The position numbers were made by a program, and so were the translations under genes. Source: Candidatus Saccharimonadales bacterium (GTDB taxonomy: Bacteria > Patescibacteriota > Saccharimonadia > Saccharimonadales > UBA7683). Taken from it: a DNA stretch of 57,289 nucleotides. Position 1 is the first letter of the stretch. Every line of letters starts with the position of its first letter. The notes beneath the pieces were generated by a model. That model saw nothing but the letters and a program-made list of their open reading frames with translations, did no database searches and was not told the DNA's origin. Below, piece after piece: positions 23,012 to 28,579 of this stretch. The stretch covers positions 1 through 57,289 of the forward strand of contig JAXMAA010000004.1 of the NCBI GenBank assembly GCA_046350615.1, in the 5' to 3' direction.

Positions 23012-23455
23012 ATGCGTAAAACAAAAAGCAAACAACTTGGTCGGCAGATTATTGAATACATGGTTGCTGGCGGCGCTTTTTTCTGGAGTGGTTACTCGGC
23101 ATTTGCGGTTTTTGATGCCGTTTTTCACTTGCCATTATTTGTTGCAAAACAGCTAGCAAATTTGATTGGTCTTGCCATTAACTACCTACTTGAAGATCAG
23201 TGGGTATTTAAGAAGGGTAAGAGTAGGCGGCAATATGATAAGCGGCGTGGGTATCGATATGTTGCTATAACGTTTATTAATTTCGCTATAGATTACGGAA
23301 TCGTCCTCGGCCTTAAAGAGCTTGGCATTACGCCGTATCTTGGGCAGTTCGCGAGCGCAGGATTTTTCACAATTTGGAATTTTCTTTGGTATAAATATTG
23401 GGTATTTGCTCATCATCCCTCAAAAAAGAAGAGTAAAAGGAGGATTCGAGCATGA
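23012..23455 (+). CDS. GtrA-family protein
   Basis: EYMVAGGAFF...INYLLEDQWVF...IWNFLWYKYWVF. Start likely ATG 23012, because 22898 would overlap galU. Confidence 0.85.
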   Translation: MRKTKSKQLGRQIIEYMVAGGAFFWSGYSAFAVFDAVFHLPLFVAKQLANLIGLAINYLLEDQWVFKKGKSRRQYDKRRGYRYVAITFINFAIDYGIVLGLKELGITPYLGQFASAGFFTIWNFLWYKYWVFAHHPSKKKSKRRIRA

Positions 23456-23892
23456 GCAGTATACGACCAACAAAAAAACAGCGTGAACTTCTAACTTTTA
23501 TTGAACAATTTATTGCGGAACAGGGTTACGGGCCGAGTTATCGTGAGATTATGAAAGGCTGTAATTATACATCGGTAGCTACGGTAGCTGTGCATATTAA
23601 TAATCTTATTTCTCGTGGCCATCTTAAAAAGCGTGATAACAGTGCGCGCTCGCTTGAAGTGGTAAAGGCCGAAGGCATCCCAGCTGCATCGCCTCAAATC
23701 AAAGTAACTGCAGCCAATGAAAAGTGGCTCGTTGATCTTATTGAGCACAAATTTCAAGCTGTTGAAACTGCGAAGAGAATAGAGCAAAAGGATTTAGACC
23801 AGCTTTACGTTATAACAGGTGCGCTCTCAGTACTCGGCTTTGACGGTGCAGCAGTAGCTTTCAAAACTCGACTCAAAGAGTTGGAAAAATAG
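23452..23892 (+). CDS. LexA-like winged-helix protein lacking the S24 peptidase domain
   Basis: TKKQRELLTFI...GYGPSYREIMKGCNYTSVATVAVHINNLISRGHLKK...ARSL. The C-terminal ~75 aa are helical with no Ala-Gly, Ser or Lys protease motifs. Confidence 0.8.
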   Translation: MSSIRPTKKQRELLTFIEQFIAEQGYGPSYREIMKGCNYTSVATVAVHINNLISRGHLKKRDNSARSLEVVKAEGIPAASPQIKVTAANEKWLVDLIEHKFQAVETAKRIEQKDLDQLYVITGALSVLGFDGAAVAFKTRLKELEK

Positions 23893-24065: not shown

Positions 24066-24140
24066 TCCGGCGTAGCTCAGCGGTAGAGCGGATGGCTGTT
24101 AACCATTAGGTCGCTGGTTCGAATCCAGCCGCCGGAGCCA
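24066..24140 (+). tRNA. tRNA-Asn(GTT) with encoded CCA
   Basis: Acceptor TCCGGCG/CGCCGGA, D arm AGCTCAGCGGTAGAGC, anticodon arm GATGG-CT GTT AA-CCATT, T loop GGTTCGAATCC, 3' GCCA. Confidence 0.97.
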
Positions 24141-24159
24141 AAAATTTTGCAACAGAGTT

Positions 24160-24193
24160 AGACCTGGTTCCTAGACCAGGTCTTTCTTTTTTT
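24160..24193 (+). terminator. Intrinsic terminator after tRNA-Asn
   Basis: AGACCTGGT/ACCAGGTCT stem followed by TTTCTTTTTTT. Confidence 0.85.
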
Positions 24194-24397
24194 GTAAAGC
24201 ACCCCTGATCTGTTAAATAGTTCGAACCTAATCGCTCAATTTGCCAAATAACAAACAAATGTTGGAACCACAGAAAATGACTGATTTTAAGCCGTTAACA
24301 CCTAAGAAATAGTTCCAAAACTGACCTGTTTTCCTATGAGGACTGAGCGGCCTGAAAATTGATATATTCCCATGACCTAACCAGGAGACACCAATAT

Positions 24398-24426
24398 TTG
24401 ACACAGCATGACACTTATGTTAATAT
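24398..24426 (+). promoter_or_regulatory. sigma70-type promoter of the ABC-F operon
   Basis: TTGACA 24398-403, 17-nt spacer, TG-t-TAATAT 24418-26. Confidence 0.8.
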
Positions 24427-24459
24427 CAGTGTAGTAATCAATCAAGGAGAAACAATAAG

Positions 24460-24486
24460 ATGATAAGAATCGCGCGAGCAAAGTAG
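24460..24486 (+). CDS. Putative leader peptide MIRIARAK
   Basis: SD AAGGAG 24444-49; ATG ATA AGA ATC GCG CGA GCA AAG TAG; lies between the promoter and the attenuator hairpin. Confidence 0.7.
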   Translation: MIRIARAK

Positions 24487-24541
24487 TCGCACAAGCGTCT
24501 TTTTTCGTATGATTCTTTCCTATTAGTTTAACTTCCTGTAA

Positions 24542-24593
24542 AAAAAGCCGAGCACTTGCGTGACTACTCACCTAAATGCTCGGCTTTTTGTTT
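24542..24593 (+). terminator. Attenuator-type hairpin in the ABC-F leader
   Basis: AAAAAGCCGAGCA (24542-54) pairs with TGCTCGGCTTTTT (24577-89), followed by GTTT and the ABC-F SD. Confidence 0.8.
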
Positions 24594-24603
24594 GGAGAAG
24601 ACT

Positions 24604-26094
24604 ATGTTAAACCTGTATAAAATTACAAAATCATATAAAGATAACCTTGTTCTCAAGGATGTTACTTTATCGGCTGGTCCAGGTGAGGTAATTGCCCTCA
24701 TTGGTGCAAACGGTGTCGGCAAGACAACTCTACTAAAAATACTACTCGGTGAGGTGGCTCCTGACGATGGGCAGATAACTAACCACCATGATGTTGTTGG
24801 CTATGTCCCTCAAGAGCTGGACAATCTTAATAAAACAATCGAAAAGAGCTTTGGCTCCATTGAGTCATGGCGAATTGACTATGCCCTTAATTTGGTTGAT
24901 CTGGGTACTGTCCCTAAGGATCGTCCTCTCAGTAATCTGAGTGGTGGTCAGAAAACTCGTGTGGCTATTGCCCAGGTTCTTGCTCAAGACCCCGAACCCA
25001 CAGTCCTATTATTAGATGAGCCTACAAATAACTTGGATGTAGAGGGTTTAGAATGGCTCGAGAGTTTCATCAAACGTTTCAAAGGTGCGGTTTTGTTTGT
25101 GAGTCATGACAGACAATTCATCAACACTGTCGCCACAAAGATTATCGAGCTTAAAGCCGGTGTAACAAAGCAGTACGGCGGTAACTACGAGTTCTATAAA
25201 CAGCAGAAAGATATCGAGTACCAGGCAGCACTTGAGAAATATGAGAAGCAGCAAGATGAGAAGAAGCGTCTCAAGAAAGCCATGGTCGCTCAGAAGGAGG
25301 CTACTAAACATGTCCACGAGCACATCAAGCGACCGGATAACGATAAGTATCAACGGGACTTTTTTAGAAATAGGGTTTCAGTAAAACTAGGTCAGAAAGC
25401 AAAAAATCTTGAGACTAGGCTAGACAAACTTGAAGATATCGAAAGACCTGATTTCGATAAGAACTACGAGTTTAGTTTAAAAGGAGCTCCTCATTCCAGT
25501 AAGTTATTAGTGCTGGTTAAGGAAGTTTCGAAGTCGTACGATAAGCACGTCGTTTTATCAGATATAAACTTTGAGATTAGAGGCAACATACATATCCACG
25601 TCAAGGGCTTAAATGGCTCGGGTAAATCGACACTACTGCACATTCTCGCCAAACAGCTTGCGCCTAGTAATGGCACGATCACTTATGGAGATAATGTTAC
25701 TGTAGGCTATTTTTCTCAGGATACAGAAGGCTTGAATTACAAAATCTCAGCCCTGGATAATTTGAGTATAACTGAAGCAAAGCAGGAGGTAATTTACCGT
25801 CAGGCTCGTAGTCTTGGAATCGCTGCCGAAGATCTCTTGAAGATGCCAGGTGAACTATCTCGTGGCCAACAGTCCAAGCTGGGCTTTGCTAAGTTGCTTT
25901 TAGCCAACCATGATCTAATTATTCTCGATGAGCCAACAAACCACCTTGATATTGCCACTAAAGAGCAGCTTGAAAAAGCTTTGCGAAACTACGAGGGAGC
26001 CGTGTTGGTTGCTTCGCACGATGTATACTTCTTAAAGCAGCTGAAAATAAATCAAACCCTAGAACTTAAAAATGGAAGGATCGTAGAATCATGA
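24604..26094 (+). CDS. ABC-F ATPase with long interdomain linker (antibiotic-resistance type, Msr/Vga/Sal-like)
   Basis: Two ABC cassettes (GANGVGKT/LSGGQ/LLDEPTN and GLNGSGKS/LSRGQ/ILDEPTNHLD), no TM segments, linker ending KAKNLETRLDKL. Start ATG 24604 after GGAG. Confidence 0.88.
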   Translation: MLNLYKITKSYKDNLVLKDVTLSAGPGEVIALIGANGVGKTTLLKILLGEVAPDDGQITNHHDVVGYVPQELDNLNKTIEKSFGSIESWRIDYALNLVDLGTVPKDRPLSNLSGGQKTRVAIAQVLAQDPEPTVLLLDEPTNNLDVEGLEWLESFIKRFKGAVLFVSHDRQFINTVATKIIELKAGVTKQYGGNYEFYKQQKDIEYQAALEKYEKQQDEKKRLKKAMVAQKEATKHVHEHIKRPDNDKYQRDFFRNRVSVKLGQKAKNLETRLDKLEDIERPDFDKNYEFSLKGAPHSSKLLVLVKEVSKSYDKHVVLSDINFEIRGNIHIHVKGLNGSGKSTLLHILAKQLAPSNGTITYGDNVTVGYFSQDTEGLNYKISALDNLSITEAKQEVIYRQARSLGIAAEDLLKMPGELSRGQQSKLGFAKLLLANHDLIILDEPTNHLDIATKEQLEKALRNYEGAVLVASHDVYFLKQLKINQTLELKNGRIVES

Positions 26095-27029
26095 AGCACT
26101 ACATAGTCAGTCTTGAAGAGGCAAAACAGTTCTTGAGCAGCCATTTTAACTCGAAGGTTACTCACGTCGAACTATTAAACGGGGGCGATTGGTCGGCGGC
26201 CTATGCGTATGTACTTGAGGGCGAAGAGTACGTCATTAGATTTGCTGCAAATCGTGAAGACTTTGCTAAAGATCAAGCTATCAGCAAATATGCTTCAAAA
26301 AAGCTCCATGTCCCAGAAGTTACTGAAGTAGGAGAAGCCTTAAGGGGTTATTACGCTGTATCAAAGCGGCATCATGGTATTTTTCTTGATGAAATCGATG
26401 GTGATCAGATGGGTAAAACACTACCCAGTCTCTTAAAGACTCTTGATGAAATCAGAGAAGTTAACTTAACAGGCACTACGGGCTATGGCTGGTGGGAGGC
26501 AAAGGGGGTGGGGAACTGCGCAACCTGGCAAGATTTTCTCATGAGCGGATTCGATGATAAGCCAGACGAGAGAACGCATGGCTGGCGTAAGAAATTGGAA
26601 TCTTCGTCAACAGGTACGGATCCATTTGATAGAATCCGCCGAACATTCGAAGCTCTTGCAGTAGATATGCCCGACGAAAGACACCTCATACACAACGACC
26701 TTTTATACCGAAATGTGTTGGTTGAAGATAATAAAATCTCTGTAGTTATTGATTGGGGTAACTCAATGTATGGCGACTTTCTCTACGACATCTCATTACT
26801 TATTTACTACTGGTCGTGGTTCCCAGAGTGGGAAGATATCGACATTAAACAGGTGATTCTCGATCATTATGCGAGCGTTGGCCTTGAGGTTCCAAATATA
26901 GAGAAGCGTCTACTTTGCTACCAAATCCATATTGGTTTAGACGGTATAAAGTACAGCGCATTCACTGGGAATCATGATCATCTAGAACAAAAGACTGAGC
27001 AGACCCTCAGACTTTTGGATTATCTTTGA
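26091..27029 (+). CDS. APH-family phosphotransferase, hygromycin B kinase (APH(4))-like
   Basis: HNDLLYRNVL (Brenner motif), IDWG; ATGA-coupled to the ABC-F; co-linear with recalled Hph motifs. Confidence 0.8.
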   Translation: MKHYIVSLEEAKQFLSSHFNSKVTHVELLNGGDWSAAYAYVLEGEEYVIRFAANREDFAKDQAISKYASKKLHVPEVTEVGEALRGYYAVSKRHHGIFLDEIDGDQMGKTLPSLLKTLDEIREVNLTGTTGYGWWEAKGVGNCATWQDFLMSGFDDKPDERTHGWRKKLESSSTGTDPFDRIRRTFEALAVDMPDERHLIHNDLLYRNVLVEDNKISVVIDWGNSMYGDFLYDISLLIYYWSWFPEWEDIDIKQVILDHYASVGLEVPNIEKRLLCYQIHIGLDGIKYSAFTGNHDHLEQKTEQTLRLLDYL

Positions 27030-27736: not shown

Positions 27737-28579
27737 ATGGCTAGAGCAGTAGGCATTGGCCGCACCAGCTTGTATATTCGTCCAACCATCCAATCCAGCA
27801 AAGACAACCAGCTAGTTCGAGAGCTTAAAGCCGCTCACGAAAGGCACCCACTGTACGGAGTACGTCGTCTTGCGCTGCATCTGGGTTGGAGTCAGAACAA
27901 GACTAGGCGGATCCGTCGGTTAAGCGGCGTCACCGCCGCCAAGCCTCACAAGAAGTATCGCAGTTGTGCTGGCAAGCCAGAGATTAACGCCCCAGCTAAC
28001 CATTTGCATACCTACGCCCTGTTCAAAAACAACAGTCGGCCTCAAGATGGCATGGATTACAGTGCAATGACCCAAGAAGCCAATGCTTGGTCGCAGGACT
28101 TTACCTACCTACGGATTCGTTCAGGTATGTTTTATCTAGCCTTAGTCATGGATCTTACAACTCGTGAGATATTGAGCTGGAAGCTCGGTACAAACCACAG
28201 CAGTAGTTTGACTCACGTTGCTCTAATTCAGGCTCTCAGAAACAACTCAAGCCCCAGTATCCTACATAGCGACCGTGGTAGTGAATATCTCAGCGAGCGT
28301 CACCAAAGCACCTGCGACAGGTTTGAAATAGCTCTCAGTGCTAGCAAACCAGGTAGCCCATGGCAAAACGGCTTCATGGAGCGTTGCGTTAAAAGTATTA
28401 AGGAAGAACTGGGTCCACTGAGCCAATACCATGACATTGACGAATTGTATGTTGGGGTTGCCAACGCTACCGCGTATTACAACAACGAACGCATCCATAC
28501 AAGCCTAAAAACCACACCAGCAGCTTACGCTGCTGGCCTAAAGCGTCTAGACAAAGTGTTCGTTAAAAAGGGAGCTTGA
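27737..28579 (+). CDS. IS3 OrfB DDE transposase
   Basis: YGVRRL, WSQDFTY, YLALVMD, LHSDRGSEY, SKPGSPWQNGFMER, YYNNERIHTSL. Confidence 0.93.
   Translation: MARAVGIGRTSLYIRPTIQSSKDNQLVRELKAAHERHPLYGVRRLALHLGWSQNKTRRIRRLSGVTAAKPHKKYRSCAGKPEINAPANHLHTYALFKNNSRPQDGMDYSAMTQEANAWSQDFTYLRIRSGMFYLALVMDLTTREILSWKLGTNHSSSLTHVALIQALRNNSSPSILHSDRGSEYLSERHQSTCDRFEIALSASKPGSPWQNGFMERCVKSIKEELGPLSQYHDIDELYVGVANATAYYNNERIHTSLKTTPAAYAAGLKRLDKVFVKKGA

What the first reader, a model, noticed from the sequence alone, without database searches (positions are those of the whole stretch)
24398..24606. Ribosome-sensing attenuator: leader MIRIARAK with mutually exclusive terminator and antiterminator
Seen: promoter, SD, an 8-codon uORF ending R-A-K, and a 13-bp terminator just before the ABC-F SD. 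An alternative helix pairs 24475-80 (CGAGCA) with 24577-82 and 24482-95 with 24555-68 (13/14 pairs, one G-U), which would disrupt the terminator. Known: ARE ABC-F genes are controlled by such leaders, and R/K-x-R/K is the macrolide arrest motif (MsrAL-type leaders end RLK). Inference: a stall at RAK would cover the antiterminator arm and switch OFF, whereas a stall at the start codon would free it and switch ON. The inducing drug class is therefore testable and may be lincosamide/pleuromutilin-type rather than macrolide.
Basis: partly seen in the sequence, partly recalled or inferred. Interest (0 to 1): 0.8.

Follow-up and report, generated by a model that had tools for sequence, protein, structure and literature searches.

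The report
Ribosome-stall leader switch before ABC-F gene
The roughly 160-base leader in front of this ribosome-protection (ABC-F) gene of a tiny-genome Saccharibacteria bacterium is a conserved RNA switch, of a kind known from Gram-positive bacteria, that most likely turns the gene on when a ribosome is blocked at the very start of an 8-codon mini-gene.

Summary

An anti-antiterminator hairpin (24462-24519) pairs the uORF body with 24510-19 and encloses the antiterminator arm.

I collected about 50 homologous leaders from Saccharibacteria genomes. All three helices show compensatory changes; in the antiterminator core, 9 of 9 pairs change on both sides. Every well-scoring leader but one (G629) has an SD-led uORF of 6-8 codons.

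The RAK motif is not conserved; most uORFs read MI[D/V]xIN[S/R]. Footprint modelling gives this picture:
- No ribosome, or a ribosome at the uORF end: the antiterminator is blocked.
- A ribosome at codons 1-3: the antiterminator forms.

So the logic matches the vmlR and cplR leaders. The switch must be kinetic, because the terminator wins at equilibrium.

The same leader also precedes hygromycin-kinase-like, AadA-like, MFS, P-loop kinase and alpha/beta-hydrolase genes. It is therefore more likely a general early-stall sensor than a lincosamide-specific one.

No experimental data exist, and the public RNA-seq contigs were inconclusive. I class it as a new member of a known kind, undescribed for these bacteria in the literature I could search.

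The parts
24398..24426 (+). Sigma-70-type promoter: -35 TTGACA (24398-403), 17-nt spacer, extended -10 TGtTAATAT (24418-26). The start site predicted from promoter geometry is about 24432-34.
   Evidence: Consensus scan, 10 of 12 matches plus TG. TTGACA and TTATGnTAATAT are conserved at the same place in more than 30 homologous loci. One RNA-run contig begins at 24429, with no coverage upstream (weak).
24444..24449 (+). Shine-Dalgarno AAGGAG of the uORF, 10 nt before the ATG.
   Evidence: Sequence. An (A)GGAG lies 9-11 nt before the uORF start in most homologous leaders.
24460..24486 (+). uORF ATG ATA AGA ATC GCG CGA GCA AAG TAG, encoding MIRIARAK. Codons 2-5 form the 5' strand of the anti-antiterminator. 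Codons 6-8 and the stop lie inside the antiterminator arm.
   Evidence: A uORF of 6-8 codons sits at the same position in all 37 leaders collected first. The peptide varies: MIDLINS, MIVTINR, MTDQINS, MIRIKL, MAGRIRVK and others.
24462..24519 (+). Anti-antiterminator (AAT, P1) hairpin. Outer stem: 24462-63 and 24465-72 with 24510-19. Inner pairs: 24474-78:24504-08, 24480-82:24501-03, 24485-86:24499-500. Apical pairs: 24488-90:24495-97. It sequesters the antiterminator arm.
   Evidence: MFE folds. RNAalifold consensus. Pair counts: 91-94% paired, 5 pairs with compensatory changes.
24475..24505 (+). 5' arm of the antiterminator. The core 24482-95 is AGTAGTCGCACAAG. A clade-specific extension, CGAGCA 24475-80, pairs with the terminator 3' arm. 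The U-run 24499-505 can pair with the A-run 24540-46.
   Evidence: Core covariation was measured on two alignments.
24555..24568 (+). 3' arm of the antiterminator core (CTTGCGTGACTACT). The same bases form the inner 5' half of the terminator hairpin.
   Evidence: On alignment A6, 86.5% of cells are paired and 9 of 9 pairs change on both sides; slid controls give 14-60%.
24540..24593 (+). Intrinsic terminator: A-run, GCCGAGCA 24547-54, inner stem-loop, TGCTCGGC 24577-84, then U5-G-U3.
   Evidence: MFE fold. The base stem is 97% paired across the family, with 4 compensatory pairs, for example CCGAGC/GCTCGG changing to CTGAGC/GCTCAG and to CCGGGC/GCCCGG.
24594..26094 (+). SD GGAG (24594-97) and the ABC-F gene (ATG 24604; 496 aa), the regulated gene.
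   Evidence: NF000355 ribosomal-protection-like ABC-F, 436 bits against a cut-off of 380. The nearest solved resistance ABC-F proteins are VmlR2, VgaA-LC, Sal and VmlR.
26091..27029 (+). Second gene of the operon, overlapping the ABC-F stop by ATGA. It encodes an APH-family kinase related to hygromycin-B 4-O-kinase.
   Evidence: NF000107 2.3e-33, far below its cut-off. PDB 3w0m 3.7e-33.

Best explanation
This is a leader-peptide transcription attenuator with three competing RNA structures.

How it is built: transcription starts about 27 nt before an SD-led 8-codon uORF. The uORF body (24462-72) pairs with 24510-19 to form an anti-antiterminator hairpin. That hairpin encloses and partly pairs the antiterminator arm (24475-95).

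OFF state: with no ribosome, the hairpin forms. With a ribosome that has run to the end of the uORF, the arm is covered by its footprint. Either way the arm is unavailable, the long terminator hairpin (24540-89) forms, and transcription stops before the ABC-F gene.

ON state: a ribosome arrested with the start codon or codons 2-3 in its P site melts the 5' strand of the hairpin but leaves the arm free. The arm then pairs with the inner 5' half of the terminator as that half emerges. In this clade it also pairs with the terminator 3' arm and the A-run. Terminator folding is delayed long enough for RNA polymerase to read through into the ABC-F and kinase genes.

What is shown: the sequence elements, their conservation, and covariation of all three helices.

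What is inferred: that the uORF is translated, that the switch is kinetic, and which stall position induces.

The likely inducers are agents that trap ribosomes at or just after initiation. Candidates are pleuromutilins, lincosamides, streptogramin A, tetracyclines, and possibly translocation blockers.
For: Sequence features.

Family conservation:
- 37 homologous leaders, all with an SD and a 6-8-codon uORF at the same place.
- 51 leaders were aligned by a covariance model that knows only P1 and the terminator.

Covariation:
- On the MAFFT alignment: P1 91-94% paired, antiterminator core 85.7% with 7 of 9 pairs compensatory, terminator 97%. Slid controls gave 33-44%, and 0 of 500 shuffles reached the observed values.
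- On the model-built alignment: antiterminator core 86.5% paired, 9 of 9 pairs compensatory, slid controls 14-60%.

Footprint scan, on the transcript truncated before the terminator 3' arm:
- Median expected antiterminator bp over 34 leaders: 0.6 with no ribosome; 15.8, 14.0 and 13.6 with the P site at codons 1, 2 and 3; 3.8 at the last codon.
- For the window: 5.6 with no ribosome; 15.8, 14.9, 14.0 at codons 1-3; 0.3 at the last codon.
- The result is stable for footprint edges +15 to +19.

Other support:
- Leaders with non-ABC-F cargo show the same rise at early codons and fall at the last; three of the four hydrolase leaders already form the antiterminator without a ribosome.
- The regulated gene passes the NCBIfam model for ribosomal-protection ABC-F.
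- The same anti-antiterminator/antiterminator/terminator logic is shown experimentally for vmlR (PMC9226507) and cplR (PMC10201436).
Against: - There is no experimental evidence for this leader.
- In full-length equilibrium folding, the terminator wins at every stall position. The only exception is one footprint setting (edge +15, start codon), so the model depends on unmeasured kinetics.
- In the truncated window transcript, the antiterminator is already slightly favoured even without a ribosome. OFF therefore relies on the hairpin forming first.
- In most clades the antiterminator pairs mainly with the apical half of the terminator, so exclusivity with the base stem is only partial.
- Coupling of transcription and translation in Saccharibacteria is unproven.
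- Public RNA-run contigs show higher leader than ORF depth in several runs. This is confounded by shared unitigs and by DNA carry-over.
Confidence: 0.75

Rival explanations
1. Macrolide-type nascent-peptide arrest at the R-A-K (+x+) motif is the inducing event, as in ErmDL- or MsrAL-type leaders.
For: The uORF is 8 codons long and ends in R-A-K. +x+ motifs also occur in two sister clades: MAGRIRVK and MIRIKL. The downstream partner is an APH-family kinase, an arrangement reminiscent of msr-mph pairs (my own knowledge). In the MIRIKL clade, an arrest with Ile4 in the P site would still leave about 9-10 antiterminator bp.
Against: RAK is absent from most of the family, which reads MI[D/V]xIN[S/R]. 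In the window, an arrest with Ala7 or Lys8 in the P site covers 24466-24498, which is the whole antiterminator arm; the expected antiterminator bp drop to 0.3-1.6. The kinase resembles hygromycin-B kinase, not the Mph enzymes. The nearest solved resistance ABC-F proteins are pleuromutilin/lincosamide/streptogramin-A types.
Confidence: 0.07
2. The leader is a general sensor of translation capacity rather than a drug sensor. Slow early elongation from any cause would switch it on, as proposed for the whiB7 uORF. One such cause would be a shortage of charged tRNA-Ile at the ATA and ATC codons.
For: Codon 2 is Ile in most leaders (ATA, or ATT in one), and an ATC codon is nearly invariant. The model needs only an early stall, whatever its cause. 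The cargo is heterogeneous.
Against: There are only one or two Ile codons and no codon run. The ATC codon is also constrained by RNA pairing within P1. Every identified cargo gene is of a resistance-like type: ABC-F, APH, ANT, MFS, hydrolase or kinase.
Confidence: 0.1
3. The uORF is not translated, and the helices form a ligand-, protein- or tRNA-controlled switch, or simply a constitutive leaky terminator.
For: There is no direct evidence of translation. One family member (G629) lacks a clean ATG uORF. No Rfam family matches, so no class can be assigned on that basis.
Against: SD, start and in-frame stop are kept at the same place in about 50 leaders, while the coding sequence varies. The 5' strand of P1 always lies inside the ORF. 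No conserved ligand-pocket-like unpaired core is evident, and the conserved positions are explained by the three helices.
Confidence: 0.04

Closest known systems
Bacillus subtilis vmlR leader (Takada et al. 2022, PMC9226507)
   Same: An SD-led short uORF lies inside an anti-antiterminator hairpin, with an alternative antiterminator and an intrinsic terminator in front of a resistance ABC-F gene. Induction comes from ribosomes arrested at or just after initiation by lincomycin or retapamulin, and the uORF begins M-I.
   Different: There is no sequence or Rfam homology. The uORF has 8 codons (6-8 in the family) rather than 3. The antiterminator arm starts inside the last codons and pairs with the apical half of the terminator. 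No SD-sequestering hairpin for the main gene is seen. A NusG-dependent pause is unknown here; only a hairpin plus U6 at 24483-24505 hints at one. The host is a Saccharibacteria bacterium.
Clostridioides difficile cplR leader and the related vmlR2, lsaA and lmo0919 leaders (Obana et al. 2023, PMC10201436)
   Same: Short conserved uORFs (MRI, MK[L/Q], MAGN) sit upstream of pleuromutilin/lincosamide/streptogramin-A-type ABC-F genes. A 5' hairpin holds the uORF, a terminator lies before the main ORF, and uORF translation is needed for induction.
   Different: In cplR the terminator also hides the main SD, giving translational attenuation. Here the ABC-F SD lies 5 nt after the U-tract, outside the hairpin. 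The sequences are unrelated.
E. coli toiL uORF of topAI-yjhQ (PMC12121999)
   Same: An 8-codon uORF senses several classes of ribosome inhibitor through stalls at different codons. Tetracycline and retapamulin stall at the start codon, with a footprint edge at +16 to +18.
   Different: toiL acts by unmasking an SD and through Rho, not through an intrinsic terminator. Stalls anywhere in toiL induce it, whereas here late stalls are predicted to be non-inducing.
Macrolide leaders with +x+ or termination arrest (ErmDL, MsrAL, MsrDL; PMC10314930)
   Same: A short leader peptide precedes a resistance gene, and this clade carries an R-x-K motif.
   Different: The motif is not conserved in the family. 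The geometry makes a late arrest repressive rather than inducing.

Membership tests
uORF-dependent transcription attenuators of resistance (ARE) ABC-F genes (vmlR/cplR/vga(A)/lmo0919 kind) | A short uORF with its own ribosome-binding site in the 5' leader | tested here: met
   AAGGAG lies 10 nt before ATG 24460, and the uORF has 8 codons. It is conserved as a 6-8-codon ORF in 37 of 37 leaders.
uORF-dependent transcription attenuators of resistance (ARE) ABC-F genes (vmlR/cplR/vga(A)/lmo0919 kind) | An intrinsic terminator between the uORF and the main ORF | tested here: met
   A 13-bp base stem plus inner stem is followed by U5GU3. The base stem is 97% paired with compensatory changes. Function was not tested.
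uORF-dependent transcription attenuators of resistance (ARE) ABC-F genes (vmlR/cplR/vga(A)/lmo0919 kind) | An antiterminator that overlaps the terminator | tested here: met
   24482-95 pairs with 24555-68, and 24475-80 with 24577-82. For the core, 9 of 9 pairs change on both sides on an alignment that was not fitted to this helix.
uORF-dependent transcription attenuators of resistance (ARE) ABC-F genes (vmlR/cplR/vga(A)/lmo0919 kind) | An anti-antiterminator that contains the uORF, so that a stalled ribosome releases the antiterminator | tested here: met
   P1 pairs 24462-72 with 24510-19, and it covaries. The footprint scan shows release only for early stalls. This is a model, not an experiment.
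uORF-dependent transcription attenuators of resistance (ARE) ABC-F genes (vmlR/cplR/vga(A)/lmo0919 kind) | Antibiotic-dependent readthrough that needs uORF translation | not testable with these tools
   Only contig-level RNA data are available, and they are inconclusive.
Any curated RNA family (Rfam 15) | A match at the family's gathering score | tested here: not met
   Only sub-threshold chance matches fall in 24400-24650. The one true hit in the searched region is tRNA-Asn at 24066-24137.
Macrolide +x+ arrest leaders (ErmDL/MsrAL type) | A conserved R/K-x-R/K arrest motif, placed so that the arrested ribosome frees the inducing structure | tested here: not met
   The motif is present only in the MIRIARAK, MAGRIRVK and MIRIKL clades. 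In the window the arrested ribosome would cover the antiterminator arm.
Resistance-type (ARE) ABC-F ribosomal protection proteins (the regulated gene) | Two ABC domains joined by an extended linker, no membrane domain, and a score above the curated model cut-off | tested here: met
   NF000355 scores 436.4 bits against a cut-off of 380. The named Sal, Vga, Msr and Lsa models all fall below their cut-offs. Linker residues 181-287 span 82 profile positions of PF12848, which implies an insertion of about 25 residues. Resistance itself was not tested.

The most novel reading that the evidence does not exclude
The leader is not a one-gene attenuator. It looks like a portable, class-specific module of Saccharibacteria that senses ribosome stalls, and it exists in SD-led and apparently leaderless forms. 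It has been placed in front of at least six kinds of resistance-like genes: ABC-F, hygromycin-kinase-like APH, AadA/ANT(9)-like nucleotidyltransferase, P-loop kinase, Tet-like MFS pump and alpha/beta hydrolase. It travels with them between families in wastewater communities. It would then define a translation-stress regulon in ultra-small episymbionts, and it would imply working transcription-translation coupling in the Candidate Phyla Radiation.
Probability: 0.55. Interest if true: 0.7.

Novelty: new member of a known kind. Interest (0 to 1): 0.55.

Why it matters
Leader-peptide attenuators of ribosome-protection genes have been worked out mainly in Firmicutes and Actinobacteria. I found no description of one for Saccharibacteria or other Candidate Phyla Radiation bacteria.

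If the switch works as modelled, three things follow:
- These ultra-small episymbionts couple transcription to translation.
- They mount drug-inducible resistance.
- They share one RNA sensor among several resistance-like genes that move between lineages in wastewater.

The family has about 50 natural variants with different uORF peptides and helix sequences. That makes it a ready-made test set for asking which stall positions and which drugs a short uORF can sense.

Tried and rejected
1. The related-loci scan of genome contigs, run with a protein alignment, picked generic ABC-F motifs. It returned mostly unrelated phyla; only L010 was useful. I used the genome search plus fetch from genomes instead.

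I brought the sequences in through DNA alignment output files.

3. Rfam gave no family for the leader.

4. Full-length equilibrium folding was tried as a test of the switch. The terminator dominates at every stall position. The single exception (window, start codon, footprint edge +15) vanished at edges +17 and +19, so I do not rely on it.

5. Public RNA runs were examined.
- Only assembler contigs are available.
- Leader unitigs are 1.2-7 times deeper than ORF unitigs in 8 of 12 runs.
- The leader unitig is shared by several cassette variants, and some libraries contain DNA, so this is not evidence of attenuation.
- One run (X27) has no coverage upstream of 24429 and an adapter junction there. 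I note it but give it no weight.

6. A first model-built alignment (A5) picked up reverse-strand terminator matches. I redid it at a stricter threshold as A6.

7. I considered and rejected three readings: RAK as the sensing motif; the small hairpin plus U6 (24483-24505) as a first terminator, because its 5-bp stem is imperfect and it is clade-specific; and SD sequestration of the ABC-F start, because that SD lies outside the hairpin.
Full report
**1. What is in the sequence**

- Promoter: TTGACA (24398-403), a 17-nt spacer, TAATAT (24421-26), and TG at 24418-19. The consensus scan scores it 10 of 12.
- uORF: AAGGAG at 24444-49, then ATG ATA AGA ATC GCG CGA GCA AAG TAG at 24460-86, encoding MIRIARAK.
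- Terminator: A7 (24540-46), GCCGAGCA (24547-54), an inner stem-loop, TGCUCGGC (24577-84), then U5GU3.
- Main gene: GGAG at 24594-97 and the ABC-F ATG at 24604. My first translation from 24605 was out of frame; one search gives the 496-aa protein.

The alternative helix is exactly as stated. 24482-95 pairs with 24555-68 in 13 of 14 positions, with one G-U and one A-C. 24475-80 CGAGCA pairs perfectly with 24577-82. Its duplex energy is -30.2 kcal/mol against -13.9 +/- 3.1 for 2000 shuffles, none of which reached it.

A tRNA-Asn gene with its own terminator lies just upstream, at 24066-24140 and 24160-83.

**2.

The minimum-energy fold of the leader contains a long imperfect hairpin at 24462-24519. 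The uORF body (24462-63 and 24465-72) pairs with 24510-19. Inside that stem, the antiterminator arm is itself partly paired: 24474-78:24504-08, 24480-82:24501-03, 24485-86:24499-500 and 24488-90:24495-97.

This is an anti-antiterminator. It is the part that makes the outcome depend on where a ribosome sits.

**3. Host and regulated genes**

The window is contig 4 of a 1.0-Mb, 99%-complete genome. The named homologues of the protein come from Saccharibacteria or Patescibacteria.

The ABC-F passes the NCBIfam model for ribosomal-protection-like ABC-F (436 bits, cut-off 380). It falls below the cut-offs of the Sal, Vga, Msr and Lsa models. Its inter-domain linker is about 25 residues longer than the Pfam linker profile. 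Among solved structures the nearest full-length resistance proteins are VmlR2, VgaA-LC, a Sal-type protein and VmlR.

The next gene overlaps the ABC-F stop by ATGA (26091). It is an APH-family kinase related to hygromycin-B 4-O-kinase.

**4. Family evidence**

A protein search of 401 genomes of the same order found 39 with a homologue. I fetched the upstream regions and aligned them. The promoter, the SD, a uORF of 6-8 codons, the segment after the stop codon, the P1 3' strand and the CCGAGC...GCTCGG terminator all recur.

The uORF peptides are listed:
- MIRIARAK or MIRIARVK in the window clade
- MAGRIRVK
- MIRIKL
- in most leaders MIDLINS/R/C, MIVTINR, MIVIINR, MIDIINR/S, MTDQINS, MIDTINS, MIYQINS or MKMTINR
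- also MRLIKQ and MIDNTNL

RAK is therefore a feature of one clade.

On a plain MAFFT alignment of 34 distinct leaders, RNAalifold recovers P1 and the terminator base. Pair counts on that alignment:
- P1: 91-94% paired.
- Antiterminator core: 85.7% paired, with 7 of 9 pairs changed on both sides.
- Terminator base: 97% paired.
- Slid controls: 33-44%. None of 500 shuffles reached the observed values.

I then built a covariance model from P1 and the terminator only. It aligned 51 leaders. On that alignment, which is not fitted to the antiterminator, the antiterminator core is 86.5% paired and all 9 pairs change on both sides. Slid controls give 14-60%.

**5. How it most likely works**

I modelled a ribosome as an unpaired block running from 12 nt before the first P-site base to +15, +17 or +19 after it. 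The toiL study (PMC12121999) places the downstream footprint edge at +16 to +18. I then asked how many antiterminator pairs are expected in the transcript just before the terminator 3' arm appears.

Expected antiterminator base pairs:

| State | Median of 34 leaders | Window |
|---|---|---|
| No ribosome | 0.6 | 5.6 |
| P site at codon 1 | 15.8 | 15.8 |
| P site at codon 2 | 14.0 | 14.9 |
| P site at codon 3 | 13.6 | 14.0 |
| P site at codon 4 | not computed | 11.0 |
| P site at codon 5 | not computed | 5.2 |
| P site at penultimate codon | 6.5 | 1.6 |
| P site at last codon | 3.8 | 0.3 |

The pattern does not change with the footprint edge.

So an untranslated leader and a fully translated leader both give termination. 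Only an early arrest gives readthrough. This is the logic shown experimentally for vmlR (uORF MIN inside an anti-antiterminator, lincomycin or retapamulin arrest at initiation; PMC9226507) and for cplR (PMC10201436).

In the window clade, the extra CGAGCA:UGCUCG pairs are free only when the ribosome sits on the start codon.

**6. Limits of the model**

- With the whole terminator present and at equilibrium, the terminator wins at every stall position. The one exception (start codon, edge +15) disappears at +17 and +19. The switch must therefore be kinetic: the antiterminator forms first and only has to last while the polymerase crosses the U-tract.
- In the truncated window transcript the antiterminator is marginally favoured even without a ribosome. 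The OFF state therefore depends on the hairpin folding first.
- In most clades the antiterminator pairs chiefly with the apical half of the terminator, plus a few bases of the 5' base arm.
- None of this has been tested experimentally.

**7. Which drug?**

A +x+ arrest at RAK puts Ala7 in the P site and covers 24466-24495, so it should repress rather than induce.

The inducer cannot be narrowed to lincosamides or pleuromutilins, however. Scanning 401 genomes of the order with the covariance model gave 44 strong leader loci. The class-level scan added more, and the phylum-level sample had none outside the class.

Cargo of the 44 strong loci:
- 38 precede the ABC-F.
- G003 and G376 precede the APH(4)-like kinase directly. 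G629, from the class-level sample, does too; its kinase is 39% identical to the window's.
- G034 precedes an AadA/ANT(9)-like nucleotidyltransferase followed by a P-loop kinase; its uORF is MISINS.
- G239 contig 7 precedes an MFS pump with weak Tet(40)/TetA(P) similarity; its uORF is MASITNN.
- G010 contig 54 precedes an alpha/beta hydrolase. Weaker hits in G026 (two) and G190 do the same. Their uORFs read ML[LFV][FY]E.. and start about 9 nt after the -10, so they are probably leaderless.
- One locus (G140) has unknown cargo because the contig ends at the terminator.

From the class-level sample, G484 precedes a P-loop kinase; its uORF is MIDTTQ.

The footprint scan gives the same rise at early codons and fall at the last codon for these leaders, although three of the four hydrolase leaders form the antiterminator even without a ribosome. 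A sensor shared by such different genes is more likely to respond to any early ribosome arrest. The toiL paper reports that tetracycline and retapamulin both trap ribosomes on start codons.

**8. Mobility and habitat**

ABC-F copies 89-99% identical to the window's occur in other families and in another order (G253, G224, G177, G091, G517, G441). In G253 and G224 the homology starts just upstream of the -35. RNA-run contigs diverge at about 24379-24383. An rve-type integrase gene lies at 27737-28579. The DNA is found in many sludge and wastewater runs.

**9. Transcript data**

Only assembler contigs of RNA-type runs are available.
- Leader unitigs are deeper than ORF unitigs in X26, X25, X27, X37, X34 and X30, by 1.5 to 7 times. 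They are about equal in X28 and X36, and not assembled in X31, X32 and X33.
- The leader unitig is shared by several cassette variants, and some libraries carry DNA. I count this as inconclusive.
- In X27, coverage is absent upstream of 24429. An adapter junction sits there, close to the predicted start site.

**10. Comparison and novelty**

No Rfam family matches. Literature searches returned no paper that links Saccharibacteria or Patescibacteria with ABC-F proteins, uORFs or leader peptides. The ABCF survey (PMC6723617) and the CPR resistome paper (PMC8651080) do not mention the combination either.

Earlier agents of this scan reported the same leader family from three other Saccharibacteria genomes, with the same reading. 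I treated these as leads and re-derived the claims here.

The leader works like the vmlR and cplR leaders but is not homologous to them. It is a new member of a known kind, with a plausible wider role as a portable stall sensor.

Noticed in passing
window 24604-27029: The ABC-F and an APH-family kinase related to hygromycin-B 4-O-kinase form a two-gene operon with an ATGA stop/start overlap at 26091. The two proteins would act on different ribosomal targets.
   Followed up: partly
L139 (G034:C18:9162-9288), L140 (G629), L141 (G484), L149-L156: The same leader RNA family precedes non-ABC-F genes: APH(4)-like kinases, an AadA/ANT(9)-like nucleotidyltransferase with a P-loop kinase, a P-loop kinase alone, a Tet-like MFS pump, and alpha/beta hydrolases.
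   Followed up: partly
L152 (G010:C54), L153 and L154 (G026), L156 (G190): In the alpha/beta-hydrolase leaders, the uORF (MLLFENK, MLFYEIR, MLLYEIS, MLVYENH) starts about 9 nt after the -10 hexamer and has no SD. This suggests a leaderless uORF form of the switch.
   Followed up: no
window about 24379-24394 and 27737-28579; G253, G224, G177, G091, G517, G441: ABC-F copies 79-99% identical to the window's (89-99% except G441, 79%) sit in different families and another order. In G253 and G224, homology begins just upstream of the -35. An rve-type integrase gene lies downstream of the kinase. The cassette looks horizontally mobile in wastewater communities.
   Followed up: partly
window 24483-24505: A small imperfect hairpin (24485-24500) is followed by U6 (24500-05) inside the anti-antiterminator. 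It is present only in the window clade and its sister clade. It might be an RNA polymerase pause site comparable to the TTNTTT pause in vmlR, but it is too weak to be a terminator.
   Followed up: no
G527:C8:41867-43129, G003:C9, G059:C75, G629:C1: Several family members look decayed. The G527 ABC-F matches in two pieces. The G003 kinase stops at 148 aa. G059 has ATA in place of the uORF ATG and a broken ABC gene. G629 has no clean ATG uORF.
   Followed up: no
window 23452-23892: A 146-aa ORF matches only the LexA DNA-binding domain and has no peptidase domain.
   Followed up: no
window 24429 (RNA run X27): One wastewater RNA-seq run has no contig coverage upstream of 24429, and a sequencing-adapter junction sits exactly there. 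That is 3 nt after the -10 hexamer and may mark an RNA 5' end.
   Followed up: no
window 24066-24183: A tRNA-Asn (GTT) gene with its own 10-bp terminator lies directly upstream of the cassette. In G034 the leader also follows a tRNA gene.
   Followed up: no
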